From Dictyostelium discoideum (lineage: Eukaryota): a DNA stretch of 64,000 nt. Under the pieces are notes generated by a model. The model was not told where the DNA came from. It worked only from the letters and a program-made list of their open reading frames with translations, and ran no database searches. Each line of letters begins with the position of its first letter. The first letter of the stretch is position 1. The DNA is taken from NCBI GenBank assembly GCA_000004695.1, contig CM000155.2, positions 192,001 through 256,000 of the forward strand, given 5' to 3'. Shown here piece after piece: positions 3,848-50,499 of this stretch. A program made the translations under genes and the position numbers.

Positions 3848-4011
3848 CTTCTCAAAATTATTATTTTTGATATTATATTTGCAATTAATAACTGACCAAC
3901 CAAAATCAACAAGTGTGTGATGGGGGTCAAAAAATTTGTTAGAATTTATCAAAATTATTATTATTATTAAATATTATTTAACTTGTGTGGTCTCCCCAAA
4001 TAATTTAACTT

Positions 4012-4043
<32 letters not shown>

Positions 4044-5773: not shown

Positions 5774-5994
5774 ATGAATCAATTTTATCAATCTACCACT
5801 GGTGGACAACAAAACAATAATAATGGTAACCAATTTCAACAATATCAACCTCAACAACAACAACAATTTCAACAATATTCACCATCAAATGCAAACAATA
5901 ACAACACAACTACAACAACCACTACTTCAACATCAAAAAAAGGTAAAAATAAAGATAATCAATCAAAACAACAACAAATACAACAACAACAAAT

Positions 5995-6034
<40 letters not shown>

Positions 6035-7381
6035 ATACAACAACAAAGTGTTGATACACCATCATCATATAATGGAGACGGATCAGATGATGGATCAGAT
6101 ACAGAACGTGAGAATAAAAAGAATAGAAATAGAGTGAACCAAAATCTTGCATCAAGAAATTATAGACAAAGAAAGAAGGAATATATTAAAGAGATTGAAG
6201 AGAAGTTGGCGGTATTGGCATTAGAGAATGATCAATTGAAAAAGGAGAATATAAATCTAAAGAAAGGGGGTGGCGTTGAAATTATGAAACCTGACCCCGC
6301 CTTTATCACAATGATGATGGAGGCCAAACAAATCATCATTCAACTCGACGTGGCGATCAAAAAGAACGATGAAAGATCTCTCATCTATCTCTTACAATTG
6401 TTTCATCTCTCCATTGAAAAACGTCACACTATCGTCGAGAGAGAAGTCGAGAAAATGGTTCACCCATACACCCAGGCCAAATTGGCGGCAATGGGCTACG
6501 TACCCTCTTTGGAGAATCCAATGATCTCTTCCATCTCTGGTCCTTCATCAGATGGTTGGTGGACAATGTATATCAGTGAGGCTCAAATCACCGAAGAACA
6601 AGCTAAAGCCATCAAACAACTTCGTTCAAATCATTGGAAAGCCGATATCGAATTAAGAAATGAAAGAGAGAAATTAGATAGATCAATTAAAGAATTTTAC
6701 CTAAATCGTGTTATGGTTTTCCCAACAAATGAAAGATTAAATAAATCTTTTGCTACTAATCTATCATTATCTGATGGTCCAAATCCAACTTCTCCAAATT
6801 CTTCATCTGTAACTCAATCTACTTTAGTTAGACCTTCACCTGGTTTAACTTTATTAAATAATTTAAATGAAGAAAATAATAATAGCAATAATAGTAGTAA
6901 TAGTAGTAATAATAATACTACCACTAATAATAATAATAATAATAGTTTAACACCAACACCAAATCAAAATAATAATATAAGTAATATAGCAGTTAATGGT
7001 ACTATATCAGTGGTAAATGAATTAGGATTTAGTCCAATTAATGGTAATATCGATATTAGTGAAATTTTAGAATTCACAAGAAAATTGGAAGCATTGAAAA
7101 AGAATTTTGTAAAACAAAGAACATTGATGGAAGATACTCATTCAGCTTTAAGTAGTATTCTCACACCAAAACAAGAGGCAATGCTTTTGGTTAGAGTTCA
7201 TTCAAGTACTCGTTATGATTTTGCAAATATGGAAATGTTAAAGAATGTTTGGGGTAGTGTCATTGCAAAAGATACAACCTCTTATCCACAACCACCAACA
7301 TTTTCACAACAAACTCAACAATTACAACAAGCTCAATTACAATTACAAAATCAAACAAAACAACAACAACAACAATTACAA

Positions 7382-7422
<41 letters not shown>

Positions 7423-7582
7423 TAGTTTTAATAATAGTAATAATAATAATGTACAAAATAATTCTTCAAATCCATCAACTCCTGGTGGTAATAATGATCA
7501 ACAAAATATTTATTATACTTCCTCTCCATCAATTCCATCATCACCATATAATCACCACCAACAACAACCTTCGAGACAATAA
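5774..7582 (+). CDS. bZIP (basic-leucine zipper) transcription factor with poly-Q/N low-complexity flanks, 602 aa
   Basis: Basic region NRNRVNQNLASRNYRQRKKEYIKEIEEKL is followed by a heptad Leu zipper (LAVLALENDQLKKENINLKK). The rest is CAA/AAT-encoded Q/N tracts typical of dictyostelid bZIPs. No intron is evident. Confidence 0.75.
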
Positions 7583-7739
7583 TAACTGAATAAATGTTTT
7601 TTTTTAGTTATAAAAAAAAAAAAAAAAAAAAATTTGATTTGTCCCTTTTATTATATATGCTTAAATTTTTATAAATATTGTTTTTTTTTTTTTTTTTTTT
7701 TTTTTTATTTTAGATTGTATTATTTTTCTTTTCTTCTTT

Positions 7740-8765
<1,026 letters not shown>

Positions 8766-8786
8766 TTTATTTATTTAATTTTATTT

Positions 8787-8826
<40 letters not shown>

Positions 8827-8906
8827 GAGGGAAGACCAATCAAAAAATTTCTGGAAATATATATTAAATTATATTATATATTTGAATTTGAATTTGATTT
8901 TCAAAA

Positions 8907-8946
<40 letters not shown>

Positions 8947-9268
8947 AAATTTGGAAAAAAAATTTTAAAGGAAAAAAAAATTTTAAAAAAAAAAAAAAAA
9001 GGAAAAATTTTAAAATTGGCCCCCGGGGGTTTTTTAAAAAAAAAACCCATTAATTTTAAATTAATTTAAAATTGGAGGAATTGGGGGGATTCCAAAAAAA
9101 AACCAATAATAATAATAATCAAGACCAAAAAAGCCAATTTTTTTTTTTTTTTATTTTTATTTTTTTTTTTTATTTTTATTTCATTTTTTTTTTTGTCTCT
9201 CCAAATGGCTTCGCTTTCAAAATTTTAAAAAACAATGAAAAAAAAAAAAAAAAAAAATTCATTTTTTT

Positions 9269-9307
<39 letters not shown>

Positions 9308-9366
9308 AATTTATATTTTTGAATTTGGTGGTCAAAATAAATCCTTCTATACATATACCCTAAAAG

Positions 9367-11505
9367 ATGTCTCAAATGATTGTAAGAAATATATTAAACC
9401 TTTATTTATCACTATTACACTATATATATTGATCAAATACTCACCAAACTATCTTTTAATTTTTTTTTTTTCAATATTTAAAAAAAAAAACATCAAACCC
9501 CCAAATTTTCAAATATTAACAATTCACCATATTCTTATTTTTAAAAACAAACAAACAATTAAAAACAAACAAATAAATAAACAAACAAACAAACAAACAA
9601 ACAAACAAACAAACAAACAAACAAACAAACAAACAATCAATCAATCAATCAATAAAACAAATAAATAAATAAACAAATAAATAAACAAACGAACGAACAA
9701 ATAAACAAACGAATGAACAAATGAATGAACAAATCAAATAAATACAAATGAATTAAATTAATTTAATTAAATTAATAATTTTGGAATTTTCAATTAATCA
9801 ATAAATGAAAAATTTTAAATGAAATTTATTATTATTATTATTATTATTATAGAGACCACCAATTGTACTTTTAAAAGAAGGTACAGATACATCACAAGGT
9901 TTACCACAATTAATTAGTAATATAAATGCATGTTGTGCAATCGTAGATACAGTACGTACAACATTAGGACCACGTGGTATGGATAAATTAATCTATCAAA
10001 GCGAAAGACAGGTTACCATATCAAACGATGGTGCCACCGTTATGAAATTATTAGATATTGTACATCCAGCAGCACGTACATTGGTAGATATAGCAAAGAG
10101 TCAAGATTCAGAAGTTGGTGATGGTACAACCAGTGTAGTGATTTTAGCAGGTGAATTCCTTAAAGCAGCCAAACCATTCCTCGAGGAGGGTATTCATCCA
10201 CAAATTATAATCCGTGCCTTTAGAAGTGCATGTGAATTGGCTAAACAAAAGATTCAAGAGTTGAGCGTAGATATCAAACCAGAAAACATGAGAGAATTCC
10301 TCGAAAAGTGTGCTTCAACCTCGATGAACTCTAAATTAATCGCCTCTCACAAACAATTCTTTAGTAAAATGGTGGTAGACGCCGTACAATTGTTGGACGA
10401 CAATATCGATCTCGATATGATTGGCATCAAGAAGGAGAGTGGTGGTGGTTTGGGTGACTCTCAATTCATTGCTGGTGCCGCCTTCAAACGTACCTTTTTC
10501 TATGCAGGTTTCGAGCAACAACCAAAACACATCAAAAATCCAAAAGTACTCTGTCTCAACATTGAATTGGAATTAAAGGCAGAGAAAGACAATGCAGAGA
10601 TTCGTATCTCTGACCCAACTAAATATCAATCATTGGTCAATGCAGAGTGGAAGTTGTTCTTTGACAAACTCGAAGCCATCCATGCAAGCGGTGTCAATGT
10701 CGTCCTCTCCAAATTGGCCATTGGTGATTTGGCCACCCAATTCTTTGCCGACAAGAATATGTTTTGTGCTGGTCGTGTACCTGATGATGACATTCGTCGT
10801 GTTTGTCGTGCCACCGGTGCTGCCATCCAAAACACTACATCCAATATCATCCCAGACGTAATTGGTACCTGCGACCTCTTTGAAGAGGTTCAAGTAGGTG
10901 GTCAACGTTACAACTTGTTCACTGGCTGCACAATGACCCAAACCGCCACTATCATCCTTCGTGGTGGTGGTGAACAATTCATCGATGAGGCCGAACGTTC
11001 CCTTCACGATTCTATCATGATCGTTAGACGTGCCCGTAAACATAGATCAGTGGTTGCCGGTGGTGGTGCTATTGAAATGGAAGTCTCTAAATATCTTCGT
11101 GACTATTCCCTCTCCATTGAAGGTAAGAAGCAACTCCTCATCAATGCTTTCGCTAAAGCACTCGAAGTCATCCCAAGACAAATCGCCGATAATGCTGGTT
11201 TCGACTCTACCGATATCCTCAATCAATTAAGACAAAAACATGCTCAAGGTGAAAAATGGTTTGGTGTTGACATTGTAAACGAAGGTATTTGTGATACCTA
11301 TGAATCTGCAATTTGGGAACCATCTCTCGTTAAACTCAATTCAATCGTTGCCGCAACTGAAGCAACTTGTTTAATCCTCTCTGTTGATGAAACCGTTCAA
11401 AATAATCAAGCTGAACAAGCTCAAGCTGGTCCACAAATTAATAACCAAACACGTCAAGCTTTATCACGTGGTAGAGGTGTTCAAGCAATGAGAGGTAGAG
11501 GTTAA
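9367..11505 (+). CDS. cct7: T-complex protein 1 subunit eta (chaperonin CCT7), 555 aa: join(9367..9381,9853..11505)
   Basis: Exon 1 is a tiny ATGTCTCAAATGATT followed by a gtaaga donor. After the tattatag acceptor at 9851-9852, exon 2 begins [47 protein letters not shown], which is near-identical to human CCT7 [49 protein letters not shown]. The full length aligns, including [23 protein letters not shown] and the RGRG tail. A (CAAA)n microsatellite sits in the intron. Confidence 0.93.
9541..9715. repeat. (CAAA)n/(AAAC)n tetranucleotide microsatellite with CAAT/GAAC variants, inside cct7 intron 1
   Basis: The sequence reads aaacaaacaaacaaaca...caatcaatcaatcaat...aacgaacgaac directly. Confidence 0.9.
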
Positions 11506-11636
11506 AAAAAAAAAAAAAAAAAAAACAAATTTAATTAAATAATAATAAAAAAAAAAAAAAATAAAATAAAATAAAAAAAAAAAAAAAAAATTAAAAAATA
11601 ATTAAATGTATACAAATAAGATTTTAAAAAATTTAT

Positions 11637-12279
11637 TTAATATCTATTAATTGGTACCCATTTTGGAGCATCAGTAAATAATCTCATTGCATGAATATTT
11701 CTACTTTCATCAAGTGCAAAACGATGATACATATTTGCTGGCTATTAATTTTTTTTTTTTTTTTTCATTGTTAGTAAATCGTTTTTTTTTTAATTTTTTT
11801 TCATTTCATTTTGGATTATAATAATAATGTTAATACATACAACTATAATTAAATCACCTTTTTTTTCTTTAATTTTAACCCATTTATCATTTTTATCACG
11901 AATATCAAAGAAACCACAACCATCTAAAATGAATCTAATTTCTTCATCATCATGTAAGTGTCTATTTTTTATTTTTTTAATTTTTTTATTTTTTTTAAAC
12001 AATAATAATAATAATAATTAGTATTTTTTTTTAGTTATTATTTAAATAAATAAATAAATACTCTTCAAAGAAAATTTTTAATTTATCTTCTAAACCTGGT
12101 GTTTCTTTTGATAATTTAACTTCATCTCTATTTTTGTAACCTCTTTCTTTACAAAGGGTCTCTAAAGGTTCTTTATAATTTTCCTTTTCCCTATCCATTG
12201 GAAAATATAATACATTGTGTTCTTTTAAATAGTCAAGTGAAATTACATCACTTTCATTATCATAAAAATAACTTTTCAT
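11637..12279 (-). CDS. Acireductone dioxygenase (ARD/ADI1, cupin; methionine salvage), 147 aa: complement(join(11637..11741,11841..11961,12062..12279))
   Basis: Exon 1 ends KIFFEE plus GA at a GTATTT donor. Exon 2 follows an aatag acceptor: (E)[40 protein letters not shown], ending at GTATGT. Exon 3 follows an aatag acceptor: [34 protein letters not shown]. These match the ARD motifs [24 protein letters not shown]...KWIRI...LPAGIYHRFT...AMRLF. Phases are consistent. Confidence 0.8.
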
Positions 12280-13951: not shown

Positions 13952-21677
<7,726 letters not shown>

Positions 21678-22263
21678 ACTAAATAAACGAAAAAAAAACA
21701 ATAAAAATTATATTATTACCTTTTTATTTATAAAAAAAGAGAAAAAAAAGTGTTTAGTTTTATTTTTAAAATAATTAAATTAATAAATAATAAAGTTGAA
21801 GAATTTAAAAATAATGTGGATTTCATTTTTTATTTATATAATATCTCAAATACTTTTAAAATTCAATTATTATTTTATTTGAATCATAAAAGTCTCATGG
21901 AATAACATTTAAAACAATCAGAGACATTTTAAAAAAAAAAAAAAAAAATTAATTGGATAATTTTAATAATTATTTAAATTTTTTTATTTGATTTTTTTTT
22001 TTTTTTTTTTTACAAATATGCTCCAAAGCATTTTAATATTTTGTTTTAATTATTAAATATTAATTTTTTTTTTTTTTAAAATATATTTATTGGGAAATGT
22101 TTGGACAACCAACAATTTTTTTCAAATTTTCACCAATTGGTATTGAAAAAGTTATTTTAAAAAATATGATTAATTTTAATAATTAAATTAAATTTATAAA
22201 TAAATTATCTTTTATAAATTTTATTACATAGTTTTATTTTATTTAATTTTATTTTATTTTAAT

Positions 22264-25200
22264 TTAATACCAACTACACCAACCAACATACATATTACAT
22301 AAATGTTTTGGATTAGTAGCTTCTTGAATTAAATGATTAACTTGACCTTCAATTGAAAGTTGTAAACCAACTGTTGGAATGCCTTGTAATGTTGCACTAA
22401 TTCTTTTTAAAATTTCAACTGCTTGATCATTTTCAACTTCACCAAAATGAGTATTATTATTATTATTAGAGTTTTGATTTTTCTTGTCAAATAATATAAG
22501 AAAAGGATCATAGATAAAGTTTTCCAAAACACGAAGTAAAACCTCTTTATTTGATCTAAGAACTCTTAATGTATTTTCACAAACTGTTTTGAATGTACCT
22601 TCAACACCTAAAACTCCGAAAACATCTACCATATTACGAGTTAAACGGAATGGTACTCTCTCTGGAACAGTAAAAGTTTCACCTTTCCAAAACAAGCAAT
22701 TGTAATCGATATGAACACATTCACCAGTAATTGAATCCAATAGAATATTTTCAGTATGACGATCACCCAAACCCAATACACTACCAACCATTGACATGAT
22801 GGCACAAGATCGAGCAAATGCATCTCTTGCATCTAACCAAGCAGAAGGCTCAGGGAAATTTGTAATGAAATGTTTATGTAGTACTGGTGGGAAGAATCTA
22901 TTGAAATCTTCAAAGAGATCTAGATAATGTTTCTCCTTTTTAGCGTTTACCATTTGATTAAATCTATCGATGCCTATAGTATCCATAGTTTCATAAATAC
23001 CACCAAGAATGGAACGTAAGGTGGCAGTATTTGAAACCCATTCAATGATACCACTCTCTTCGTTGAATGGAATTACAGTGTAAGTTCTAATCTTTAGATT
23101 ACGTTTTCTACAAGCTGGATCCTTCTTTATGAGCTTATTGACCATTGTATTGAATTCCATAACACGTTGATCTTTTCTAAGGTCATCATTTGGTTTGAGG
23201 AGGAAACTGTATCTATTACCTTGACGATCGTTAACATTGATTTTCTTTGGGCCTTGAAGGGATGGCATAATATCGATTTGATCTTCGAATGAACCAATCA
23301 AAGGTAATGAACCAAATGCTGGATAGGATTTATCAGGTTTACCATTTGGTGGTAAACTAACATTTAAAGAGGATTGAAGTGGTAAGATAACGGTTAGATC
23401 TTTCATTTCATAGAGTTTCTTAAAGATTTCAGACATTTTTATACTATATCTTTTATTGGCTTTCTTTGGATGATTTGAAACTGCGAGCAATTGTGCACAC
23501 AATAGAATGGTTTCATCTTGATTCTTTTTGATTGCATCAGTTTTTCTGGCTTTTTCTAAACAAGTACGTGCTCTTTGTTTTCTAATGGATGAACTGGAAC
23601 GATATTGCATCATCATGATCCAAATCGATTGTTTTGGAAACTCTATCATTGTCCTTATAATGATTTTTTCCAATATTAACCATGTATCAGTGTTTTTATG
23701 ACAGATTCTTGAGGCAACCTGTGATAAAAACATTAACCAATTTGAGGCAGGTACATCCAACTCTAGTTTTGACATTGCTTTCTTTATGGATTCCAATGAA
23801 TCAGAGGTAACTTTTGTTGATTTCTCTGGAATTTTAAAATCACTAAATATTACACCAAGTTCACACCATAATGCTATAATTCTAGTTAATGTTTGATAAA
23901 TATAAGAATGGCCTAATATAACCGCTTGACCATAGGATGAAATGATATTTCTAGTATAATCGACATAGGAAACACTATCTAATGGAGGTGAATTTGGTGA
24001 ATTTTGATTAACCCTCTTAAGATTTGATAAAAGTGAATCATAATATCTACCTAGGAAAAAGAAACCTTTCTCCCATTCAAAAGCTGTTGCACTTGAATAA
24101 TGTTCAGTTAGCTCTGAATGATGAGTAATACCACATTGTTGTTTCCATCTTGCAATTAATAAATGAGTTTTTGAAATTATAAATAAATCTTCTTGTGGTA
24201 AACCTAATAATGATAATTTACTACCATTATTAATATTAATATTACTACTACTATTATTACTACTGTTATTATTACTATTAATTATTGGATTCCATTTATT
24301 TTTTAATTCTTGAGTTAAAATATTAATTGCTTCAAAACTATGACCTTGATTCCACATTAATTTTGCATGTTCAATGAAATAGAATTTATCTTGTTGTGAT
24401 GGTGTTGGTTTTAAAATTGCATTTAAAGAGAGTTCAAACTTTTTATCATGTCTTGCATACTTTCCAATTTTCATCCAACAATCAATAACTTCTTTCGAGA
24501 ATGAACCAATCTCTAAGATCTCTCTACGAACACTAAGAATACTTTCTCTAAGTTTAAATGATGGTTGAATAATTTTTAATCTATCATCCCATTCAGATAA
24601 TAATTTCTTTAACATTTGTTGTTTTTGAACATTATTATTATTACTATTGTTATTATTACCAATATTATTATTATTATTTGTAATTGTAACATTTTCAATT
24701 GGAATTACATTATAATGAATTAATTTATAACTTTGTTCAATTTCTTCAAGGATATGTGCTTGAATTAAGTAAGGATAACATCTTTGATAAGAATCTAAAG
24801 CTGAACCATTTAAAAGTTGAGCTAAAAATGATCTACATTGGAATAGGTTTGAATTAAATTCTTTTTCTTGTTTTTTAACCAATGAATATAAAATTCTACC
24901 CAAATATGCTTCAAAATTTGGTTCATGTGTTTGAGATAATGTTTCATCAATTTTATCCCAATGTGATAATCTCCAAGATGATTGAATTTTAATGGTACCA
25001 AGTTTAGATTGATCTTTATTAGTTAACCATGGTTCTTGTTTTAAACCTTCAATTTGAAGTAATAATGATTCATGTTGACCTAAATTGAATAGACAATTGA
25101 GTGCTCCAATTCTAAGATCCATATTAATTGGTGATCTTTCCAATGCAGTATTATAATAAAGTAATGCATCACCCCAAAATCCTTGACTTTCCAATTCAAC

Positions 25201-25386
25201 TATCTTTTCTTCATTCGATGGTGAACCAACTCTCTTATGAGATAAACCTATTAAACCATCAATATCATCCATTTCATGATAAATCTTTTGTAATAATTGT
25301 AAATTATTATTTAATGCTAATTCTCTAGCACTTGCCATTGAAGCTGGTTGTGATGAATTTAATATTGGAATTTGTTGTTGTTGAAC

Positions 25387-25429
<43 letters not shown>

Positions 25430-27848
25430 GGTTGTTGTTGTTGAAGTTGTTGTTGATATTGTAAATTTTGTTGTTGCATATTTAATTGTAGATTTAATTG
25501 ATGTTGTTGTTGTTGTTGTTTTAATATTTGACTAGTTTCATTTCTAATTAATGATTCCATATAACTTAATGATGTAGATAATGCACCACATCTATAGGAA
25601 GCAAAAGCTAAAATTTTCTCTGGAATACCATTTAAGAAACGTTCAATTACGACAACATCTGGTGGAGATTCCAACTTTTTTGATTTTCCTTTTTGAGAGG
25701 CTGTTCTTTGTTGTTGAGTTAGAAAATATTTTCTCTTTCTAACATCGATCCAATTGTTTAGACTATTGATTACATGAAAAATGATTTGAGTACAAATTTG
25801 ACCATTATCAGTACTAAGATCTGTATTATTATTTAATACCTCTAAAATTTCATTCTTTATTGATTGAATATCACTCTCTCTACCATATTCAATGATATTT
25901 AAAATTACCAATGGTAAAAGATAATGACAAATCTTTAAATCATCCTTTATAATACCACGACATGCCATAAATATTGAATCTAAATCATTATTTGCTGAAC
26001 CTGGTGAACCTTTAGTTTTAAATAATAAATCAGATAACCAACTTGTTATCCATTTTTTATAAGTCATATTTGAACCATAAAAACATGATGATGAACCAGA
26101 TGAACTAACACCATTACCACCACCATTACCATTACCACCACCACCACCAACTAAATTATTATTCTTTTTTGAAAATAAAGGTAACATATATTCTGAAGAA
26201 TAATATGGTTTAATTATATCATTACATTCATTTGATAATTTCTCTGATAATTTTGTATCTTGACAACATTTTAAAATCTCTTGAATTGCATAACCTGCTC
26301 TATCTTGTGGAGTTGGATTACTTGGTGAAAGAACAAACTTTGCTAAATATTTCTCAATTAATTCTGCAGCGATTTGAACTTTATCCTTTTCAGCGGTTGA
26401 TTGATTTCTAAGACTAAAATCTAATTTCACAGGATCAATTGCACCCAATTCACCAAGACATGTTAAGAAATTTACACTTAACTTTAAGTATGGATCTCTA
26501 CAACCAATTAATAAAGATTTAACCAAATCATTTATTAAAATTGGATCAGAATCTAATTGAATCATTTCATGAATTATAGATTTATTGGCTGATAATAATT
26601 CTTTTAATTTATTGGTTGACATAAGTTTAACTTCAATCGATTCATTTGAGAATAATTCCATCAATTGTTTAATTTGAGTAGTTAAATTTGCTGAACTAGA
26701 TTCTAACTCTTGAATGTAAGGTTTTAAGACTGTATATTCCTTTGGTAGGAAAGGAATAGTTTTAAAATAAGGTTTTAAAATAGTACGATTCTTTATAATT
26801 AAATAATCGAAAATTAATAAAGATTTCTCTGGATATGATTGTACAAATGGTAAAATTGAGAATACAATTTGATTTAATATTGGACCAATACTATCTAATT
26901 TTAATAATTGAATAAAAGTAAACCAAGCATCGATTGCAATCTCCTCCATTGGCGTTTTAATTGCTAATCTTAAGAATGCCATAATCTTTGGTCTGAATAA
27001 ATCCACAGATTGACCCATTAAACCCAATAAACGATGAAAACTGGTCATCATTGTTAACTTTTCTTGAGTACTCTTTTGTTTATTTGTCATTATCATGGTA
27101 AAGAAATTCATTGATCCTAAAAATTCCTTAATTAAGAATTTGTCAAATGTCATATCACCACCAACGAATTGACTAACATAATCTAAAGCTTTCTTTGCTT
27201 GTTGACCATCACCATTGGCCAAATTCAATATAAGCGAATTGATAAATGATTTTGGTAAATTTGAAACCACTGCATCTTGATTGAAATCTGCAAAACGACA
27301 AAAGCATATAATGCAACTTGTTAAATTCTCCACACTGGTAGCATGAATGAAAATATATTCAAATATTAATCCCATTAAATAATCTTGACCACAAAGTTCT
27401 TTTAAATCTTTTAATTCATCTTTTAAACAATTTAAAATATTATTTGAACTCTTGAAAATTAATACTGGTATAACAGTTGGTAAAGATGAAATTAAAAATT
27501 GATTCAACCCTATCCCTAAAAAGTATCTACATAATTCCACCAATGATTGTCTATTTGTATAAAGATTTTCAATAATTCTTGGATTTATATATTGTGCCAT
27601 ATTTGTCATCATTAAAGTTTTTGGTGTTTGATTTAATTTCTTTGCAATAAATTCAATGGTTTCAATTGAATTAACTTTAATTGTTGTTTGTCTTGATAAA
27701 TTTTCAATTAAAGTACAAAATATAATTAAAATAAAATCATTTGAATAAATTTTATCTTGCCATGTTATTGAATCATTATTTGTTGTCGTTGTATTATTAT
27801 TATTTAGTTGATTATTATGTGATGAACTTGAAGATGATAATTGTTGAA

Positions 27849-27882
<34 letters not shown>

Positions 27883-28707
27883 TAATGAATTATTTAAAAT
27901 ATATTGATCTTTTTGTGATTGAATTATTAAATTTGCAATTTTTTTTAATAAATATAAAATTGAAAATAAAATATCCTCCCTTTCACTTTTATTTGAATAA
28001 AGTGGATGTAATTGATAAAAGAAATTTGTTAAAACATCTGGATTAGTTTGATAATTAAATTTTAACATTGAAATTATAATCTTTATAACTGATTTTCTAA
28101 TGATATCATTTCTATTTGCCGATAAAAGATTTAAATAAAATTTAAAGAAACCTTCAATCGATGTTGATGGTAATGGTGAATTATGAATTAAAATATTTTT
28201 AAATGTGAATCCCAAATAAAAATATTTTATCGAAGAATCATGATCACCATCACCACCACCACTAGTCATCATTGAAGTATCATTATCCAAATCGGAATTT
28301 TGACCGTCATGATATTCCAAAAATAATTTTGAAAATAAAATATTCTCTTTATATTTTGATTCTAAAATTAAAATTTGTTCATTATTATTCGTTTTATCAA
28401 TATCCATTATTGTTTCATCTTTTTCATTATTATTATTATTATTGTTTGATGGTGGTGATTTATGAATTGGTCTATAAGGTTTTAAATTTAAATCAACAAT
28501 ATTTGTATTTAATACTGATGAAACTGTAACACATTTACAAGAACATAATGGTAACCAAACACCTTCAAAAATACCACAACCAACTAAATTATTATAATTT
28601 GATAGTAATGGGTCGATTTTAATTCTATTATTTTTAGTATCAGTAAATCTTTGGAGCAGAATAGAGTTATTTATTATTATAAGGTTATTTTGTTCTTGAA
28701 TATTATT

Positions 28708-28752
<45 letters not shown>

Positions 28753-29270
28753 ATTGTTGTTGTTATTGTTTAAGTAAGTACATCTATTTAGATTCTCAAA
28801 GAAACAATAACCTTCCTTCAAACAATATAAACTACCACCAATTACACCAACCATATCTAAAATTAAACTTGTAACATTTAAATCTATTATTGACTCTAAT
28901 CTCTTTATAATGTCATTACACATGATTTGATATTGATGATTGGTTGAAATGGTTGCTAAAGAATTAACTGGTGACATATTTGAAATGAATACTGGCAATA
29001 ATTTTATAACATTAATTAAATAATTTTGATCTAATTTTGATAAATATTTTTCGCCCTTATTATTATTATTATTATTACGTTGTTGTTGTTGACTAGCACT
29101 TATAGCTTGTGAATCACCCATTGAAGATGATGTATCACTTGATATATTAACTAAAATCGGACTACTTGATACGATAGTTGGATTATTTTTATTTGATTCA
29201 CCAACATTTTGTTGACTTGAACTTTTATCTGTTGTTGTAGCTGTAGTTGTTGTTGTGTTTGTAGTAGCAG

Positions 29271-29323
<53 letters not shown>

Positions 29324-29895
29324 GAGTTCACCAATGATTTATTTAATGATAAAGTTGATAAAACAATATCAACTCTTTCATTAACATAATATGAGCATGG
29401 TAACCAACAAACTAAAGAGAAAGAGATCACTTTAATTGAATTAATTATTTCAGCATACTTTGTTAAATTAAATATTGTTGAATGATTTGTTACGATTGTT
29501 GATAATTTAAATAATGATTCTAATAATTGTTCATTTGATTTTAATGTTGAAATTCTATGTAAATATTCAATCTCTACAGTACTTGATAATTTTAATAAAT
29601 CCATTAAAACCTCTAAAAATAAATTATCAAGTTCTTTTTGCTATAATTGAATAATTATTAAAAATTAATATGAAATAAATATATTTATAAAAAAAAAAAA
29701 AAAAGTGGTAGGGATATTATTTTAAAAAAAAAACACTTACTTGAATTATTAAATCATAAATAAAATTTAAATTATTTATGAATAAATTAACTAATTCTTT
29801 TACTGAAACTCTATTATGATGATTTTTACAAATTTTAAAAATGAGATGAAGTGCTTTTAAATAAATTCTAATTGATTTTTGTTGTTCTATTGTTG

Positions 29896-29927
<32 letters not shown>

Positions 29928-32083
29928 GAATCTTCTGTAATACTTTTTTGATTTTCAATTTGTTTATTATTAACATTTTCACTAGTACCACCAGCACCAC
30001 CATCACCATCATCTTTTTCAATATTTTCAGTATTATTATCTATATTCTTATCCTTTACTGAATTTGTAACTGTTGATATACTTTCATAAATATTTGAAAT
30101 ATTTAAACAATTTGAATAATCAATTAATGTATTTAAAATCTCTAATGATATATCAATATCAGTATCATCATCATCATCATCAGTATCAATTAAATAGGAT
30201 TGATTAATAACATAATCAAAACATTGATATAATTTATCATGAATACCTTCATCACCAAATAAAGGTACTAAATTATAAATAGATTTAAATTGTAATTCTG
30301 ATAATTTTAATATATTTAAATAAATATCTAAAATTGAAACCTATTATTTTAATATTTTAATTATAATTATTAGTAATTGATTAAATAATTTTTAAAAAGA
30401 AATAAAAAATAATATATATATATATATATATATATATTACCTTTAATTCTGTTAAATTTGTATTATTAATAATAAATAAAATATTTGGTAAAATGATTGA
30501 AGAGAAATCAAATAATGTTGAACTTGGTACATTTGAAAATAATAATGGTATGATTGAGGTTAATTTTATGTCAATCTCTTCCCTTCTCTTTGAACAATCC
30601 TTATCATTGAGTAACATACTCATTGGTAATAAAACATTAAAAAATTGACCAACAATATTATTATATAATAATGCAGGTATTTGATTTGATGATAATTTTA
30701 ATAATTTTTCAAATAAAACTAATAAAGACTAAAATATTGAAAAATTAGTATATGCTTTAATAATAAAGTAGTTTAATTAATACATACATAAATAAAATTT
30801 GCCATATATTTAAATGAAGAAAGTTTTAAATCATTTAATAAAAATAGATATTGTGATAAAACATCCCAAAGGTCAATTGATACTGAATATAAAATTGGTG
30901 AAAAATTATCAATGACACTACTAATCGATACTAATAAACCATATTGAAGATTAATTAAACGATTAATAGATGATATTACAATAATAACACCTTCATCAAT
31001 TGATTTACTATTATCATCATTACTATTACTCTTTTCTTTTTCAATATTCTTATCTTTTTCACTATTATTATTATTATTATTATTATTGTTGTTATTTTTA
31101 GAATATTGATTAAATGCCATTTCAGTTTGTACTAATAAATCTAAAGATTGATAATGTTTTGAATAACTACTTGTATTACCTGTTGTATTTGAATTTATAA
31201 TTACTGAACTCGATAATTCACAATATGTTTTTAATACCATTGGAAATATTGATTTTTCTTGTTCTTGTTGATTATTACTACTATTTAAACATTTAATAAA
31301 ATCAATGCAATCTATATATATATATATATAAAATAAATATATTTTAGTACGATATAATTGGTAATGAAAACATAACTATTATATAATGTTTAATTTACCT
31401 TTAAATAAACAAATTGTTTCTTTAAAAAATAATAATAAAACATTTGCATCATCATTTAAGAAGTTTAACATTGCTTTTATTGCAGTGATTAAATTCTCTG
31501 TAAATTCTTCATTCTCATCCAATTGTTGATGTTGTTGACTACAAATGTTTGTTGATGATTTATGTGAGAGAAAAGGTATCAATTTGAATAAGAAAAAGCA
31601 AATATCACCACTACTATCGCCAATTGCTAAACTACTATTTGGAATTTTCTCAATTAAATAACTAATTAATTTTACAATTTGATTTATATCACTTATACTT
31701 GCAGTTGATACTAAATGTGAATTTATTAATTCTGGTAATATTGATCTAATTCGTGATATATATAATTCATATTTTTGTTGTATTTTATGTGTAGTTTTAT
31801 TTTGTTGTTGTTGTTGTTTATTATTATTTGTGACTGATGTTGTGTCTAAATCTTTTTTATTATTTTTATCATCTACTATTGAATCTTTACTTAAATTGAT
31901 TGGATGATTTTGTGAATTATATTCATTACCACCTAATTGTTGAATTTCAATAATTAGGCTTACTAAATTTGAAATGAGTGATTCTTTCTCATTTTGTTCT
32001 TTTTCTTGTCTTTCTCTTTCTAATTGTTGTTGATATTGTTGTTGTTGTTGTCGTTGTTGTTCTTGAAATTGCTCACTAGGCAT
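22264..32083 (-). CDS. atr1: ATR/Mec1/Rad3-type PIKK checkpoint kinase, about 3156 aa: complement(join(22264..29640,29740..30336,30441..30728,30788..31311,31399..32083))
   Basis: The C-terminal exon carries the PI3K-like kinase ([11 protein letters not shown]...HIDYNCLF...DFG) and the FATC tail ...[13 protein letters not shown], which matches the ATR tail ...LCQMYIGWCPFW, with FAT/UME-like helical repeats upstream. Upstream exons were rebuilt from donors GTAAGTG, GTAATATATAT, GTATGTATT and GTAAATT and acceptors ttatag, aataatag, tattttag and tatatatag, with all phases and exon lengths consistent. ATG at 32081-32083 ([15 protein letters not shown]...). The internal exon 29740..30336 has no ATG/TTG, which explains its absence from the ORF track. 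Confidence 0.85.
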
Positions 32084-32491
32084 ATTATATAAATATATAT
32101 TAATAAATAAAAAATTAAAGATCGGAAATGTAAAAAAAAAAAAAAAAGTTAAACAGTGAAAAAAAAAAAAAAAAAAATGAAAAAAAAAAAAAAAAAAAAA
32201 AAAAAAGAATTTAAAATTAAATAATTAATTTCTAAGAAAAAAAAAGATTTTAAGAAAATTAAAAACAATGATTTTATTATCTATTTTTAAAAAATAAATG
32301 ATTTATTTATTTTATTTAATTTTTTTTTTTTTTTTTTTCCTCTGTTTGTTTAATATTCTTTTTTTTAAAATACATCTTATTAAATTGTTTGATCTCGATT
32401 TGGTTTATTTTTTATTATTATTATTATCATTAGAATTGAAAACTTCTAAATAATATTTTCAACTCTTTTTTTTTTTTTTTTTTTTTTTCCC

Positions 32492-33088
32492 CTAAGAGAG
32501 TACAAAAATTTTTAAAAGGGCTAATAATGTTGCAAATAATAAACCTAGTAAAGATTTTTTAGAATTTTGATTTCTATCTATATCATTTGACATTGAAGAA
32601 GATGATGATAAAACTCTAATTGAACCAAGCATTGTTTGATTATGATATTTACAATGATACGTGTAAATACCTTCACGAGTGAAAGTTACTGAATGTTTAC
32701 TTTTTGTATAAGAATCTTTTGAAAATGTTGATGAATTTATAATTTGAAAATATTTATTATTACTATTAGTATAATAATTTAAATTTGCATTATTATTTAT
32801 CTCTTTACTATTAATTTGGTTCATCAATATCTCTTCTTTATTAACTATATCAATTGATCTAATTGATGTAACTGTATGTTGTAATCCATCTGTAGTTATC
32901 CATGTTACTGTGACGTGTGTATATATAGAATTAGTAATTTTATACATATATCAAAAATAATAATAATAATAATAATAATAAATTACCTTGATCACCAACA
33001 GATATTGTTATTTCTGATTCAATTGGGTTATCCCATTTTATAACTATATCACCTACAATATTTATATGTATAAATAAATTAATAACTA

Positions 33089-43527: not shown

Positions 43528-44143
43528 ATGGAAGCACTTATACTTTTAAGTTCACAACAAAGTGGGTCAATTAAAAATAATTGTGCATCAACAAGTGATA
43601 TTGAAAATGTAGAGGATGACGATAGTATTGTTATAGTTTCAGATTCACCAACGTCGTCACCAGTAACATTATCAACCTCATCACCAGTATCATCATCTTC
43701 ATCATCCTCACCAATTTCAACATCTGTAGTACCACCAACATCATCATCATCCAATAAAAAAGCCAATGGATTATTTTCATTGATTGCAACTGAATTAAGT
43801 CAACTCGATCGTTCATCTCCATCTTCATCTCCAAATACACCAAAAACTCCAAAAACTCCAAAAACTCCAAAAACACCAAAGAAAACATCACCAGATTCAA
43901 ATGAAGCCAACCAAGAGGTACCAAAACAAAAAGAAGTTTTTGAACATACACCAACTACAACTTCCACCTCTACAACTCCAATAAAACCTGTAAAAGATCC
44001 AAAAGAAAAAGAAAAAGATTTAGAAAATGATAGAAAAAGACAATCATTCATGTTACATTGGAGATTTAAACCTTCAACTGCTAATAATACAAATAATAAT
44101 AATAATATTAATAATAATAACAATATAAATAGTAGTAGTAGTA

Positions 44144-44227
<84 letters not shown>

Positions 44228-44271
44228 TTAATAATAGTAGTAATAATAATAGTAATTGTAATAATAACAAC

Positions 44272-44311
<40 letters not shown>

Positions 44312-44588
44312 GTAATAATACACAACCTTTATCACCTACAACAGCATCTCAACAAGCAAATTCACAACAAAACCAACAATCATCACCTACTTCATCACAA
44401 ACTAATGAAACTAATGGTAATCCACCCGAGTTTAATAGAGGAAGAAGAAATTCAACCCCATCATTACAAAACTTTGTTTCTCATTGGAAATTTGATCCAA
44501 AAGCACATCAAAAACAACAAATACTTCAACAACATCAACAACAATTACTTTTACAACAACAAGAACAACAATTACAACAACAATTATT

Positions 44589-44679
<91 letters not shown>

Positions 44680-45131
44680 CTACAACAACAACAACAACAA
44701 CAACTACAACAACAACAACAACAGCAACAACAACAACAGCAACAATATTTTAGACCAATTTCTCCTGAACATATATATGAATCACCAAATGAAAATAATA
44801 ATGGTGGTTCATTCCAAAAACCAAATACTCATTTCCATCCATATAGTAGAGGCCCATTGGGATTGAATCTAAAAGGTGTGTCTGGCTCCCCCTCTCATTC
44901 TCCTAGAGTTTCCCAATCTCCAAGAGTTCCATCACATCCACACTCTGCTGATCAATCACCCTTCCACACACCAAGACAAACTGAGAGAAGATTGTCTCTA
45001 CCAAGTGTTCCATCTTATCAAGCAGCATATCAATCATACCAACAACAACATACTCAACAACAAACTACAATTCAACAACAACAAAACCAACAACATCAAT
45101 ATCAACAACAATATCAACAATTACAACAATT

Positions 45132-45211
<80 letters not shown>

Positions 45212-46039
45212 CGTCATCGCCACCATCACCACCATCGCCACAATCTCAACCACAAAATTCATCATCACCTCGTCAACCATCACAAACTCCACAATTTTAT
45301 ATACCAATATCAAATATACACCGTCATCATCAACAAATTCATTCACCACATTTATCTCCACATCCACCACATTCACCTCATATGCCACAATCTCCCCATA
45401 TGCCTCATTCTCCACATCTTATGCCTCACTCACCACATTCGCCTCATATGCCACATTCGCCTCATATGCCTCATTCACCTCATATGCCACATTCACCTCA
45501 TATGCCACACTCACCCCATATGCCACATTCGCCTCATCATATGCCACACTCACCTCACTATGGATCATCACCAAATTTAAATGGTGGAAAGGGTAGTAAT
45601 AACTTTTTACAATCAATACCGGAAGTTCCTTATGGTAATAATCTAACAAATTTAAATGGTAGTAGCGTAGATTCCTATTCAAATTCCTCTCCAACTCCTC
45701 AATCTCCACCTTTTTCACCTCATCATCAATCAACCATCAAACCTTGTATTATAACACCATCACCACGTTTATTAAAAACTCATAATGAAAACTATATGAG
45801 TTCACCAAGACAACCTTTGTCACCTCATAATCAACATGTATATTTAAGCCATTCACCATCTCCACCCCCATCATCATCACCACATGAACATTGTAATTAT
45901 ATTGATAAAAATGATGAGTATTATAGTAATAATAATAATAATAATAATTATAATAATAATAATAATAATAATAATGAAAATTGTAATCACTACCATAATA
46001 ATTCTTCATCTCATAATTATCAAACAAATAATAATTATT

Positions 46040-46100
<61 letters not shown>

Positions 46101-46287
46101 CAATAACAATATTATTAATAATAATATTATAAAAGAAGATAAGCTTCCATCAATGAGAGACTTACTTAGCCATTTAAATATAAATCATCAAGACGGTCCT
46201 AATAGTGCAAGTAGTACACCAAGATTACCAACGGATCATATTAATAATATAGATGAAAAATCAAAATCTAAATTATTATTCTTTTAA
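43528..46287 (+). CDS. Low-complexity N/Q/S-rich protein with (KTP)n, two HW(R/K)F motifs and about 12 tandem SPH(M/L)PH hexapeptide repeats, 919 aa
   Basis: Continuous ORF. It contains PKTPKTPKTPKTPK around 43840..43880, SFMLHWRFKPS and NFVSHWKFDPK, long CAA-encoded poly-Q, and SPHMPHSPHMPHSPH... encoded by imperfect 18-bp repeats around 45330..45560. No recognisable catalytic domain. Confidence 0.6.
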
Positions 46288-47657: not shown

Positions 47658-50499
47658 ATGTTTGGTGGTCAATTTGGTTCATTCGGTGCAAAACCAGCTG
47701 CAACTGCATCACCATTCGGTGCTCCATCCGCTGCACCAACAACTTCATTGTTTGGTTCAACAGCTCCATCATCAGGTAAGTTTTTTTTTTTAAAATAAAA
47801 AATCATAAAACAAATATATAAATTAAATATTAATACAAAGTTTCAATTTCAAATAATATTATTTTAGGATTTGGAGGATTTGGATCAACAGCACAGACAA
47901 CACAACCAACAACAGGTGGATTTGGAGGATTTGGTGGATTTGGAGGAGCAACAACTACACAGCAACCAGCAGCAAGTCCATTTGGTGGTGGAGGAACAGG
48001 TGGTAGTGGATTATTTGGATCATCAGCACAAACAACAACACAGCAACCAGGTGCAAGTCCATTTGGTGGTGGATTTGGTACAACTACTACAACAACTACA
48101 CAGCAACCAGGCGCAAGTCCATTTGGCGGAACAGGTGGTGGATTATTTGGATCATCAGCACAAACAACAACACAACAACAAGGTGCAAGTCCATTTGGTG
48201 GATTTGGAGGAGCAACTACAACACAACCATCATTATTATCAGGTGCCACTGGTGGTTTTGGTGGTTTTGGTGGTTCTACAACTTCAGGTACTCAATTAGG
48301 TGGTGGTGGTGGTGCAACAAGTGGTGCATTTGGTGGTTCATCAAGTCCATTTGGTGGTAGTGGTGGTGCAACCACATCAAGTCCATTTGGTGGTGGTGGT
48401 GGTAGTTTCGGAGCAACCACTCAAAAACAATATGGAACACCAATTCCATATCAACAAACTACAATTGAAGGTAATACATTCGTTTCAATCTCTGCTATGC
48501 CACAATATAACGATAGATCATTTGAGGAATTAAGATTTGAAGATATCACTCATAGAAAGGATATAGTTTATAAGACAGGTGGTGGCAGTGGTGGTGGTAA
48601 CTCATTGTTTGGTTCAACTCCAACCACTCAACCTTCATCACCATTTGGTGCACAAACAACAACTCAAACCACTGGAGGTTTATTCGGTGGTCAAACTACT
48701 ACCTCACCATTTGGTGGTCAAACTTCAGCCACTCCAGGTTCATCATTATTTGGTTCAACACAACCAACTCAACAACAAACTAGTGGTGGTTTATTTGGTT
48801 CAGTACAACCAACCCAACAACAAGCTGGTGGTGGTTTATTCGGTTCAATGCCAAGCACAGGTGGTTCATCATTATTTGGTTCAACACAACCAACTCAACA
48901 ACAAACTGGTGGTGGTTTGTTTGGTGCAACCCAATCAAATCAACCAACCAATTCATTGTTTGGTGCATCAGCACGCATCAGCACAACCAACACAATCATT
49001 ATTTGGTGGACAAACTCAAACAACCACTTCACCATTTGGTAGTCAAACCTCCACACCATTTGGTCAACCTCAACAAACTAATACTGGAAGTGGATTATTC
49101 GGTGCTCAACAAACTCAACAAACTAATACTGGAGGTGGATTATTCGGTGCCCAACCAACTCAACAAACTAGTGGTGGTGGATTATTCGGTACTCAACCAA
49201 CCTCTGGAACTGGGTTGTTTGGTACGTCACCAACAGCAGGAGGTACAGGTTTATTTGGCACAACACAACCAACATCCCAAGGTACAGGTTTATTTGGTAC
49301 AACACAACCAACAACTCAAGGTACCGGTTTATTTGGTACATCACCAACCTCTGGTACAGGTTTATTTGGTTCAACACCAACCTCTGGTACAGGTTTATTT
49401 GGCTCAACCCCAACATCTGGTACAGGTTTATTTGGTTCAGCTCAACCACCACAAAATCAACAATCTCAAACTTCACTCTTTGGTAATACAGGTACAGGTG
49501 CAACCAACACTGGCACTGGTCTATTTGGTTCAGCTCAACCATCATCAAACCCAGGTGGTGGTTTATTTGGTTCAGCACAACCATCAACTACTACAGGTGG
49601 TCTTTTCGGATCAAACCAACCAACAGCACAACCAACAACTTCATTATTTGGAAATACCACTGGTTCAGTTGGTGGTTTGGGTGCAACACCAAACATAACC
49701 AGTGGATTATTTGGTTCAAACCCAGCACAAACTGGTGGATTATTTGGTTCAACACAACCAACCACCCAAACTTCACTCTTTGGAAATACAGGATCAACTG
49801 GTGGTTTAGGTGCACAAAATGGTGGTGGATTATTTGGTAATCTTTCACAACCAACCGCAACTGCTGGTCAAGGATTATCAGGTGGATTATTTGGTAATCT
49901 TTCACAACCTACTGCAACCGCTGGTCAAGGTTTATCAAGTGGTGGATTGTTTGGTAATACATTATTAGGTCAACCAAGTACACAGGGTTTATCAAGTGCC
50001 CTTCCAACATTGGGTTTAGGTTTAATGGGAGGTCAACCACAACAAACTCAACAACTTCCACAAGGCTCATTGATGTTACAACAAACTCAACAACCACTTC
50101 AACAACAACCACTCCAACAACAACAACAACCACTCCAACAATCAACCATCCAATTAAATAATCAAATCAATTCCGCTTCACCTTATTTCCCAATTTCATC
50201 ACCAGCACCATTTGCAACATTTGTTAAGGATTTAACATCAACTTCAAAAGTTGTTTCACCACCATCTTACACTCAAAGATCCTTATCACATCATGGTTAT
50301 ATTCCAAAATCAACCACTAAATTAGTACCAAGAAGAGGCCCAAACAATGTAGATCTAGGTTTTTCAGTTATACAAAATCAAAATGGTTTATTCCCAATTG
50401 ATAAATTTATTACTAAACATTCAAAATCTTTAAATATTAATACTACAAATGAAACTGAAGATACTTTAAGATCATTAAATACAAAGAGTTCTTCATTAT

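What the first reader, a model, noticed from the sequence alone, without database searches (positions are those of the whole stretch)
22264..32083. ATR/Mec1 checkpoint kinase reconstructed across five exons, convergent with the formin gene
The 2446-aa ORF holds FAT, PI3K-like kinase and FATC (tail ...[10 protein letters not shown]). Four further 5' exons add about 700 aa and are invisible as ORFs because they lack start codons. All splice phases and exon lengths (685, 524, 288, 597, 7377 nt) are mutually consistent. The 3' ends of atr1 (22264) and the formin (21677) converge within 590 bp. The ATR 5' end shares a 400-bp intergenic region with the 3' end of the cupredoxin gene.
Basis: partly seen in the sequence, partly recalled or inferred. 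Interest (0 to 1): 0.5.

Follow-up and report, generated by a model that had tools for sequence, protein, structure and literature searches.

The report
Dictyostelium atr1 checkpoint kinase gene

Summary
On the minus strand, 32083..22264 carries a five-exon gene. The 7377-nt last exon encodes UME, ATR M-HEAT, FAT, ATR HEAT, PI3/PI4-kinase and FATC domains. Its best solved relative is human ATR (E = 4.7e-207), and the catalytic K, DRH-N and D residues are intact.

The four upstream exons are genuine:
- They score as coding only in the frame the splice model requires.
- Their product aligns without gaps across all four junctions to the N-termini of full-length ATR proteins from two other dictyostelids (Synstelium polycarpum, Cavenderia fasciculata).
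- Three of the four introns sit at the same aligned position and phase as introns of the C. fasciculata gene.

One correction: exon 4 is 600 nt (30340..29741), not 597. Only that gives a GT donor (CAA|GTAAGT). The protein is 3157 aa, not 3156.

All seven published CRISPR guides for D. discoideum atr1 (DDB_G0291380) match the window exactly, two of them in exon 1. Published frameshift alleles in exon 1 slow growth. The gene is therefore already named, annotated and mutated. Novelty: already known. Interest: low.

The parts
31399..32083 (-). Exon 1 (685 nt, codons 1-228 plus 1 nt). The initiator ATG is at 32083..32081. No in-frame ATG lies upstream before the stop at 32227.
   Evidence: The coding score is +0.62 bits/codon in the model frame only. 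It holds two published atr1 guides (32058-32077, 31932-31951) and the published frameshift site at 31542-31588. The motif [11 protein letters not shown]...FKLIPFLS is conserved in both orthologues.
31312..31398 (-). Intron 1 (87 nt, GTAAAT..TATAG, 13% GC, phase 1).
   Evidence: Same alignment column and phase as C. fasciculata intron 2.
30788..31311 (-). Exon 2 (524 nt, up to codon 403).
   Evidence: Coding score +0.75 only at the required frame offset 2. 24-32% identical to the orthologues.
30729..30787 (-). Intron 2 (59 nt, GTATGT..TTTAG, 15% GC, phase 0). This is the least certain junction. An alternative (exon 2 ending at 30784, next exon starting at 30718) would remove 2 aa.
   Evidence: The nearest C. 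fasciculata intron lies 11 alignment columns away, in a gappy stretch.
30441..30728 (-). Exon 3 (288 nt, codons 404-499).
   Evidence: +0.69 in the model frame only.
30341..30440 (-). Intron 3 (100 nt, GTAATA..AATAG, 5% GC, phase 0).
   Evidence: Same column and phase as C. fasciculata intron 4.
29741..30340 (-). Exon 4 (600 nt, codons 500-699).
   Evidence: A 597-nt exon is followed by CA, while a 600-nt exon is followed by GTAAGT. Coding score +0.84 in the model frame only.
29641..29740 (-). Intron 4 (100 nt, GTAAGT..TATAG, 12% GC, phase 0).
   Evidence: Same column and phase as C. fasciculata intron 5, and the alignment is gapless across the junction in both orthologues.
22264..29640 (-). 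Exon 5 (7377 nt including the TAA stop at 22264-22266; codons 700-3157).
   Evidence: Five published atr1 guides match inside it.
26845..27138 (-). UME domain (protein residues 1534-1631).
   Evidence: Pfam PF08064, E = 2.4e-21.
25504..26079 (-). ATR M-HEAT region (residues 1887-2078).
   Evidence: Pfam PF25030, E = 2.3e-28.
23875..24993 (-). FAT domain (residues 2249-2621).
   Evidence: Pfam PF02259, E = 5.3e-39.
23521..23787 (-). ATR-like HEAT repeats (residues 2651-2739).
   Evidence: Pfam PF23593, E = 4.3e-20.
22501..23211 (-). PI3/PI4-kinase catalytic domain (residues 2843-3079), with K2848, D2992, N2997 (GDRHTEN) and D3011 (HIDYN).
   Evidence: Pfam PF00454, E = 5e-63. These residues align residue for residue with human ATR KPKDDLRKD, GDRHGEN and HVDFN.
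22267..22359 (-). FATC domain at the extreme C-terminus (residues 3127-3157).
   Evidence: Pfam PF02260, E = 5.1e-16.
32084..32491 (.). 408-bp AT-rich spacer (long T runs) between the upstream minus-strand ORF and the atr1 ATG. Presumed atr1 promoter and 5' UTR (inferred).
   Evidence: No coding signal in any frame.
21678..22263 (.). 586-bp spacer between the convergent stop codons of the formin gene and atr1. Presumably holds both 3' UTRs (inferred).
   Evidence: No coding signal in any frame.

Best explanation
Window 32083..22264 (minus strand) is the D. discoideum gene atr1 (DDB_G0291380). It has five exons (685, 524, 288, 600 and 7377 nt) separated by four short AT-rich GT-AG introns, and it encodes a 3157-aa orthologue of the ATR/Mec1/Rad3 checkpoint kinase.

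Shown here:
- the exon structure
- the ATR-specific domain order: N-terminal helical region, UME, M-HEAT, FAT, kinase, FATC
- an intact catalytic centre
- exons 1-4 encoding the poorly conserved N-terminal helical part that other dictyostelid ATRs also carry.

Inferred from what is established for ATR/Mec1 in yeast and animals:
- The N-terminal HEAT solenoid docks a partner of the ATRIP/Ddc2 type.
- That partner brings the kinase to RPA-coated single-stranded DNA at stalled forks and resected breaks.
- An activator relieves inhibition around the kinase, PRD and FATC region.
- The kinase then phosphorylates S/T-Q sites on effectors such as Chk1-type kinases, slowing the cell cycle and stabilising forks.

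The roughly 500 extra residues compared with human ATR are largely homopolymer runs typical of D. discoideum (N, Q, T and G tracts; about 363 aa).
For: Gene structure:
- The splice model gives one uninterrupted 9474-nt CDS with four GT..AG introns of 59-100 nt and 5-15% GC, against 20-27% GC in the exons.
- Each of exons 1-4 scores +0.62 to +0.84 bits/codon only in the frame the model demands, like exon 5 (+0.64). The introns and both spacers are negative in all frames.

ATR identity:
- Pfam finds UME, M-HEAT_ATR, FAT, HEAT_ATR, PI3_PI4_kinase and FATC in order.
- Human ATR is the top solved relative (E = 4.7e-207). The alignment begins at query residue 1398 against human residue 974, so about 970 human residues precede it. 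The large ORF alone would supply only about 690.
- The catalytic K, DRH..N and D residues are conserved.

Upstream exons:
- A full HMMER scan of 1.84 billion representatives with residues 1-1149 found two long proteins matching residues 97-574 and 73-547 at their own N-termini (E = 1.4e-37 and 1.8e-08).
- Both carry the full ATR domain set. They come from the dictyostelids Synstelium polycarpum and Cavenderia fasciculata (XP_004361508.1).
- The three-way alignment crosses all four junctions without gaps.
- Dd introns 1, 3 and 4 coincide in alignment column and phase with C. fasciculata introns 2, 4 and 5. The chance of this is about 1e-7.

Published record:
- All seven published guides for atr1/DDB_G0291380 match exactly and are followed by NGG, two in exon 1 and five in exon 5.
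- Frameshift alleles in exon 1 were made there, and atr1 mutants grew slowly (PMC9250498).
- The Dictyostelium kinome paper lists an ATR orthologue (PMC1420674).
Against: - No transcript data could be consulted, so the junctions are inferred from sequence and comparison, not observed.
- The product of exons 1-4 has no Pfam hit and no sequence match to any solved structure.
- The single-sequence AlphaFold model is of low confidence (mean pLDDT 47.8). It supports only 'all-helical, solenoid-like'.
- The intron 2 junction lies in a poorly aligned stretch. A nearby in-frame alternative would remove two residues.
- The exact 3157-aa sequence was not found in the 15-billion-protein collection. Neither was anything else from D. 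discoideum, so this does not discriminate.
- Kinase activity and checkpoint function were not and cannot be tested here.
Confidence: 0.96

Rival explanations
1. Two genes rather than one. Exons 1-4 would form an independent gene of about 706 aa for a helical protein, ending at the stop 22 nt past the exon 4 donor (29717-29719). The kinase would be translated separately from the first ATG of the large ORF (29604, Met712).
For: The reading frame of exon 4 does run into a stop 22 nt after the donor, and the large ORF has its own ATG 36 nt inside exon 5. Published frameshift alleles in exon 1 are viable. That would be expected if the kinase did not depend on exon 1.
Against: Both dictyostelid orthologues carry the homologous N-terminal region and the kinase in one polypeptide. 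C. fasciculata has an intron at exactly this aligned position and phase. The 12 codons between the acceptor and Met712 are open and align with hydrophobic helix residues of the orthologues. Only about 115 nt would separate the two genes. Without exons 1-4 the protein would lack most of the roughly 970 residues that precede the aligned region in human ATR. The slow growth of the exon 1 frameshift mutants shows that exon 1 matters.
Confidence: 0.02
2. The same single gene, but with slightly different junctions. Candidates are the reader's 597-nt exon 4, or the alternative intron 2 (exon 2 ending at 30784, exon 3 starting at 30718), giving a protein one or two residues shorter.
For: Several in-frame, stop-free GT-AG combinations exist near each junction. 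The region around junction 2 is only 18-24% identical to the orthologues and is gappy.
Against: The 597-nt exon has no GT donor. The chosen donors (GTAAAT, GTATGT, GTAATA, GTAAGT) are the best matches to the usual GTAAGT-type consensus, and they excise exactly the low-GC stretches. Junctions 1, 3 and 4 coincide with C. fasciculata introns, and the alignment across them is gapless.
Confidence: 0.03

Closest known systems
Dictyostelium discoideum atr1 (dictyBase DDB_G0291380)
   Same: All seven published guide RNAs designed against this gene match the window exactly with NGG PAMs, in exon 1 and exon 5. The published mutant site maps to exon 1. It is the same gene.
   Different: Nothing detected, apart from one A in the machine-read supplementary figure (AAAA against AAA at 31559-31561), which is most likely a reading error. 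From memory only, not checked with tools: the UniProt entry for ATR1_DICDI is 3157 aa long, which would agree with the corrected model.
Human ATR (PDB chains such as 9l4d_A, 23ew_A)
   Same: Same domain order and the best solved relative (E = 4.7e-207). Residues 1398-3155 align to human 974-2642. The catalytic K, DRH..N and D residues, the FATC tail and the UME domain are conserved.
   Different: About 500 residues longer, mostly homopolymer N, Q, T and G tracts. The first roughly 1400 residues show no detectable sequence similarity to human ATR. The metal-binding motif reads DYN instead of DFN. Binding to an ATRIP-type partner was not tested.
Saccharomyces cerevisiae Mec1 (PDB 5x6o_C, 6z2w_E)
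   Same: The FAT, kinase and FATC region aligns (E = 2.8e-86; query 2553-3155 to Mec1 1794-2366).
   Different: More distant than human ATR. No alignment N-terminal of the FAT domain was reported.
ATR orthologues of other dictyostelids: Cavenderia fasciculata XP_004361508.1 (2763 aa) and Synstelium polycarpum EP01133_P004009 (2566 aa)
   Same: Collinear over the full length: 41-43% identity in the C-terminal 1760 residues and 18-39% over exons 1-4. Same Pfam set. Three shared intron positions with C. fasciculata.
   Different: They are 400-600 residues shorter because they lack most of the low-complexity tracts. C. fasciculata has seven introns, four of them without a D. discoideum counterpart at the same position. 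There is no conserved gene neighbourhood in the C. fasciculata locus.

Membership tests
ATR/Mec1/Rad3 subfamily of PIKK kinases | PI3/PI4-kinase-type catalytic domain with the ATP-binding lysine, the catalytic loop DRHxxN and the metal-binding D of the DFx motif | tested here: met
   PF00454, E = 5e-63. K2848, D2992, N2997 and D3011 align with human ATR KPKDDLRKD, GDRHGEN and HVDFN.
ATR/Mec1/Rad3 subfamily of PIKK kinases | FAT domain before the kinase, and FATC as the last 30 or so residues | tested here: met
   PF02259, E = 5.3e-39. PF02260, E = 5.1e-16, ending at the last residue.
ATR/Mec1/Rad3 subfamily of PIKK kinases | Subfamily-specific regions: UME domain, ATR M-HEAT and ATR-like HEAT repeats | tested here: met
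   PF08064 (2.4e-21), PF25030 (2.3e-28) and PF23593 (4.3e-20), all above their curated cut-offs.
ATR/Mec1/Rad3 subfamily of PIKK kinases | Closer to ATR than to any other PIKK (ATM/Tel1, mTOR, SMG1, DNA-PKcs, TRRAP) | tested here: met
   Against all PDB sequences: ATR 4.7e-207, Mec1 2.8e-86, mTOR about 3e-64, ATM 1e-62, Tel1 3e-57, SMG1 about 3e-50, DNA-PKcs about 3e-32. No phylogenetic tree was built.
ATR/Mec1/Rad3 subfamily of PIKK kinases | Long N-terminal HEAT solenoid (the ATRIP/Ddc2-binding region) | tested here: inconclusive
   The product of exons 1-4 is predicted to be all-helical, with about 25 helices of 15-25 residues. Model confidence is low (pLDDT 47.8). Foldseek returns only generic solenoids (karyopherins, TRRAP, DNA-PKcs) at TM 0.1-0.2. 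Homology to the N-termini of two dictyostelid ATRs is clear. Partner binding was not tested.
ATR/Mec1/Rad3 subfamily of PIKK kinases | S/T-Q-directed protein kinase activity and a replication-stress or DNA-damage checkpoint function | not testable with these tools
   Only indirect evidence: atr1 guides were strongly depleted in a growth screen (rank 2), and recreated mutants proliferated slowly (PMC9250498).
Dictyostelium-type spliced protein-coding gene | Short, very AT-rich GT..AG introns that restore a single open frame, and coding statistics in the exons | tested here: met
   Introns are 59-100 nt at 5-15% GC, all GT..AG. Frame-specific codon score. Three intron positions shared with C. 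fasciculata. Junction reads (RNA-seq) were not available.

The most novel reading that the evidence does not exclude
Published frameshift alleles in exon 1 (codons 166-177) are viable and only slow growth. The locus might therefore also produce an N-terminally truncated but functional kinase, by re-initiation at a downstream Met or from an internal promoter (for example Met712 at 29604). That would mean the ATR N-terminal solenoid is partly dispensable in Dictyostelium. Alternatively, ATR may simply not be essential in this organism. Nothing in the sequence requires either reading.
Probability: 0.1. Interest if true: 0.3.

Novelty: already known. Interest (0 to 1): 0.08.

Why it matters
It matters little beyond quality control. 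The result shows that reading the sequence alone recovered a correct multi-exon model of a 9.5-kb gene whose N-terminal 700 residues have no detectable family signature. It also fixes a one-codon error in that model. ATR is the central replication-stress kinase, and the kinome paper reports that Dictyostelium lacks ATM (PMC1420674), so atr1 is biologically important. However, the gene is already annotated, named and mutated.

Tried and rejected
- Exact look-up of the 3157-aa model and of the 2446-aa ORF in the large protein and contig collections found nothing. These collections appear to hold nothing from D. discoideum itself, so this says nothing about the model.
- A word-indexed homology search with residues 1-805 gave no hit. 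A search with the conserved UME/M-HEAT region gave only one 794-aa fragment. The index is swamped by low-complexity words or is poor in amoebozoan proteins. The exhaustive HMMER scan solved this.
- Pfam and PDB sequence searches with the product of exons 1-4 gave no significant hit.
- The single-sequence AlphaFold model of residues 1-805 was of low confidence. Its Foldseek matches were generic alpha-solenoids with poor TM-scores. I use them only as 'helical repeat-like', not as evidence for ATR.
- I rejected the two-gene reading on orthologue collinearity and the shared intron.
- tRNA and Rfam scans of the window were empty.
- A literature search for the identifier DDB_G0291380 in main texts found nothing. 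The identifier appears only in supplementary tables.
Full report
**Context.** The window has about 22% G+C, with coding stretches at 25-35% and spacers at 14-18%. This is the signature of a dictyostelid genome. The finding concerns the minus strand between 22264 and 32083.

**Checking the observation.**
- The mechanical ORF list shows a 2446-aa ORF at 22264..29604 (-). Upstream on the same strand lie smaller ORFs at 30381..30623, 30773..31240 and 31379..32083.
- Translating from 29640 shows that the frame of the large ORF is open for 12 codons before its first ATG. It ends in ...[10 protein letters not shown].
Exon 1 is 32083..31399 (685 nt, donor AAG|GTAAAT). Exon 2 is 31311..30788 (524 nt, donor TAT|GTATGT). 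Exon 3 is 30728..30441 (288 nt, donor AAG|GTAATA). Exon 5 is 29640..22264 (7377 nt with the stop, acceptor TTATAG|CAA).
- The stated 597 nt for exon 4 cannot be right. Starting at the only suitable acceptor (AATAG|GTT, first base 30340), a 597-nt exon ends at 29744 and is followed by CA. Three bases further on lies a perfect donor, CAA|GTAAGT.
- Exon 4 is therefore 30340..29741 (600 nt). All four introns are GT..AG (87, 59, 100 and 100 nt; 5-15% GC). The CDS is 9474 nt and the protein is 3157 aa.
- Enumerating all in-frame, stop-free GT-AG pairs near each junction found no pair that yields 597 nt.
- The geometry claims hold. The convergent stop codons of the formin and this gene are 586 bp apart. 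The stop of the upstream minus-strand ORF (32492..32947) and the ATG at 32083 are 408 bp apart.

**Is it more than chance?**
- I trained a codon log-odds score on eight other ORFs of the window, with the same ORFs read out of frame as the null. Exons 1-4 score +0.62, +0.75, +0.69 and +0.84 bits per codon. Each is positive only in the frame the splice model requires (offsets 0, 2, 0, 0), and the other two frames are negative.
- Exon 5 scores +0.64. The four introns and both flanking spacers are negative in all frames.
- Each exon's frame hits a stop 13-58 nt beyond its donor, so the introns cannot be read through.

**What the protein is.**
- The product of exon 5 matches, in order and above the curated cut-offs: UME, ATR M-HEAT, FAT, ATR-like HEAT, PI3_PI4_kinase and FATC.
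- Against every PDB sequence, the full model hits human ATR at E = 4.7e-207. Next come Mec1 (2.8e-86), mTOR (about 3e-64), ATM (1e-62), Tel1, SMG1 and DNA-PKcs.
- The catalytic lysine (K2848), the catalytic loop GDRHTEN (D2992, N2997) and the metal-binding D3011 (HIDYN) align residue for residue with human ATR.
- The alignment to human ATR starts at query residue 1398 against human 974. About 970 human residues precede it. The large ORF alone would offer only about 690, much of it homopolymer. With exons 1-4 there are 1397, of which about 222 are low complexity.

**Are exons 1-4 really part of it?**
- Their 699-aa product has no Pfam family and no sequence relative among solved structures. That is usual for the fast-evolving N-terminal HEAT region of PIKKs.
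- The word-indexed protein search found nothing.
- The exhaustive HMMER scan of 1.84 billion representatives with residues 1-1149 found two long proteins whose own N-termini match. P0002 (2566 aa) matches query 97-574 to residues 41-447 at E = 1.4e-37. P0003 (2763 aa) matches query 73-547 to residues 4-443 at E = 1.8e-08.
- Both carry the complete ATR domain set. They come from the dictyostelids Synstelium polycarpum and Cavenderia fasciculata (XP_004361508.1, 'protein kinase').
- A three-way alignment is collinear over the full length. Identity is 34-39% in exon 1, 24-32% in exon 2, 18% in exon 3, 20-31% in exon 4 and 41-43% in the C-terminal 1760 residues. It crosses all four exon junctions without a gap.
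- One example is ...[13 protein letters not shown]|DCIDFIKCL...[13 protein letters not shown] against ...LSLFLKETLYIYE|DLLELLEM...[13 protein letters not shown]. The start region also matches: the orthologues begin about 20 residues before the first conserved helix.
- I fetched the C. fasciculata locus and mapped its eight exons exactly. Its introns 2, 4 and 5 fall in the same alignment column and the same phase (1, 0, 0) as D. discoideum introns 1, 3 and 4. Its intron 3 lies 11 columns from D. discoideum intron 2, in a gappy stretch.
- Under a uniform model, three exact coincidences out of four have a probability of about 1e-7.
- The coincidence at junction 4 holds for the 600-nt exon 4.

**Structure.** A single-sequence AlphaFold model of residues 1-805 is of low confidence (mean pLDDT 47.8). 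It is all-helical, with about 25 helices of 15-25 residues, and one helix (679-700) runs across the exon 4/5 junction. Foldseek returns generic alpha-solenoids (karyopherins, TRRAP, DNA-PKcs, cohesin SA2) with poor TM-scores. This is compatible with an N-HEAT region but is not evidence for it.

**Identity with a known gene.**
- A genome-wide CRISPR study of D. discoideum lists guides for atr1 = DDB_G0291380 (PMC9250498, supplementary files 2 and 3).
- All seven match the window exactly (20 of 20 bases), each followed by NGG. Two are in exon 1 (32058-32077 and 31932-31951) and five are in exon 5.
- The atr1 target used to recreate mutants maps to exon 1 (31542-31588), in the conserved [12 protein letters not shown] motif. 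The alleles are -5, -4, -2 and +23.
- atr1 ranked second among depleted genes in the growth screen, and the mutants proliferated slowly.
- The Dictyostelium kinome paper already records an ATR orthologue and the absence of ATM (PMC1420674).
- The neighbouring formin carries FHA, FH3 and FH2 domains over two ORF pieces. From memory, that is the ForJ architecture.

**Mechanism.** The gene structure, domain order and intact catalytic centre are shown above. The rest is inferred from established knowledge of ATR/Mec1:
- The N-terminal solenoid binds an ATRIP/Ddc2-type partner.
- That partner recruits the kinase to RPA-coated single-stranded DNA.
- An activator acts on the kinase, PRD and FATC region.
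- The kinase phosphorylates S/T-Q sites on checkpoint effectors.

None of these steps was tested here.

**Rivals.**
- A two-gene reading has exons 1-4 as an independent gene and the kinase starting at Met712. The sequence formally allows it. The fused orthologues, the shared intron at that very position, the conserved codons between the acceptor and Met712, and the growth defect of exon 1 frameshifts all argue against it.
- Slightly different junctions remain possible only for intron 2, where an in-frame alternative would remove two residues.

**Verdict.** The finding is a correct rediscovery of an annotated, named and experimentally mutated gene, with a one-codon correction to exon 4. It is already known and of low interest.

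Noticed in passing
window 31542-31588 (exon 1, codons 166-177): Published atr1 frameshift alleles (-5, -4, -2, +23) lie this early in the gene, yet the clones are viable with slow growth (PMC9250498). Either ATR is not essential in D. discoideum or a truncated product is made from a downstream start.
   Followed up: partly
window 185-1390 (-): A 401-aa ORF with a PI3_PI4_kinase domain (E = 6.4e-24). This is a second member of the PI3/PI4-kinase superfamily about 21 kb from atr1. The gene probably extends further upstream through introns.
   Followed up: no
window 13952-16855 and 16962-21677 (+): The convergent formin is split over two long ORFs about 100 nt apart, presumably by one intron. It carries an FHA domain and an FH3-like region in the first ORF and FH2 in the second. 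FHA is an unusual addition for a formin.
   Followed up: partly
window 48579-51515 and 51941-54409 (+): A Nup98-96 precursor gene (FG repeats, autopeptidase S59, Nup96). Its Gly-rich FG-repeat part explains the 43% G+C spike at 48-50 kb, and the several overlapping ORFs in other frames there.
   Followed up: partly
window 43528-46287 (+): A 919-aa ORF with no Pfam family, in a stretch with extreme GC skew (-0.57) and AT skew (+0.29). It is probably a low-complexity coding region.
   Followed up: no
The label is plausible but not established here.
   Followed up: partly
L001 (Cavenderia fasciculata GL883008.1) 3001-11885: The C. fasciculata ATR gene has seven introns against four in D. discoideum. 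Its neighbours are different (ubiquitin, alternative oxidase, RING finger), so the formin/atr1 arrangement is not conserved.
   Followed up: partly
window 22705-22707 (D3011 motif): The metal-binding motif reads DYN where human ATR has DFN. The two other dictyostelid ATRs read DLN. This is a conservative variation of the residue after the aspartate.
   Followed up: no
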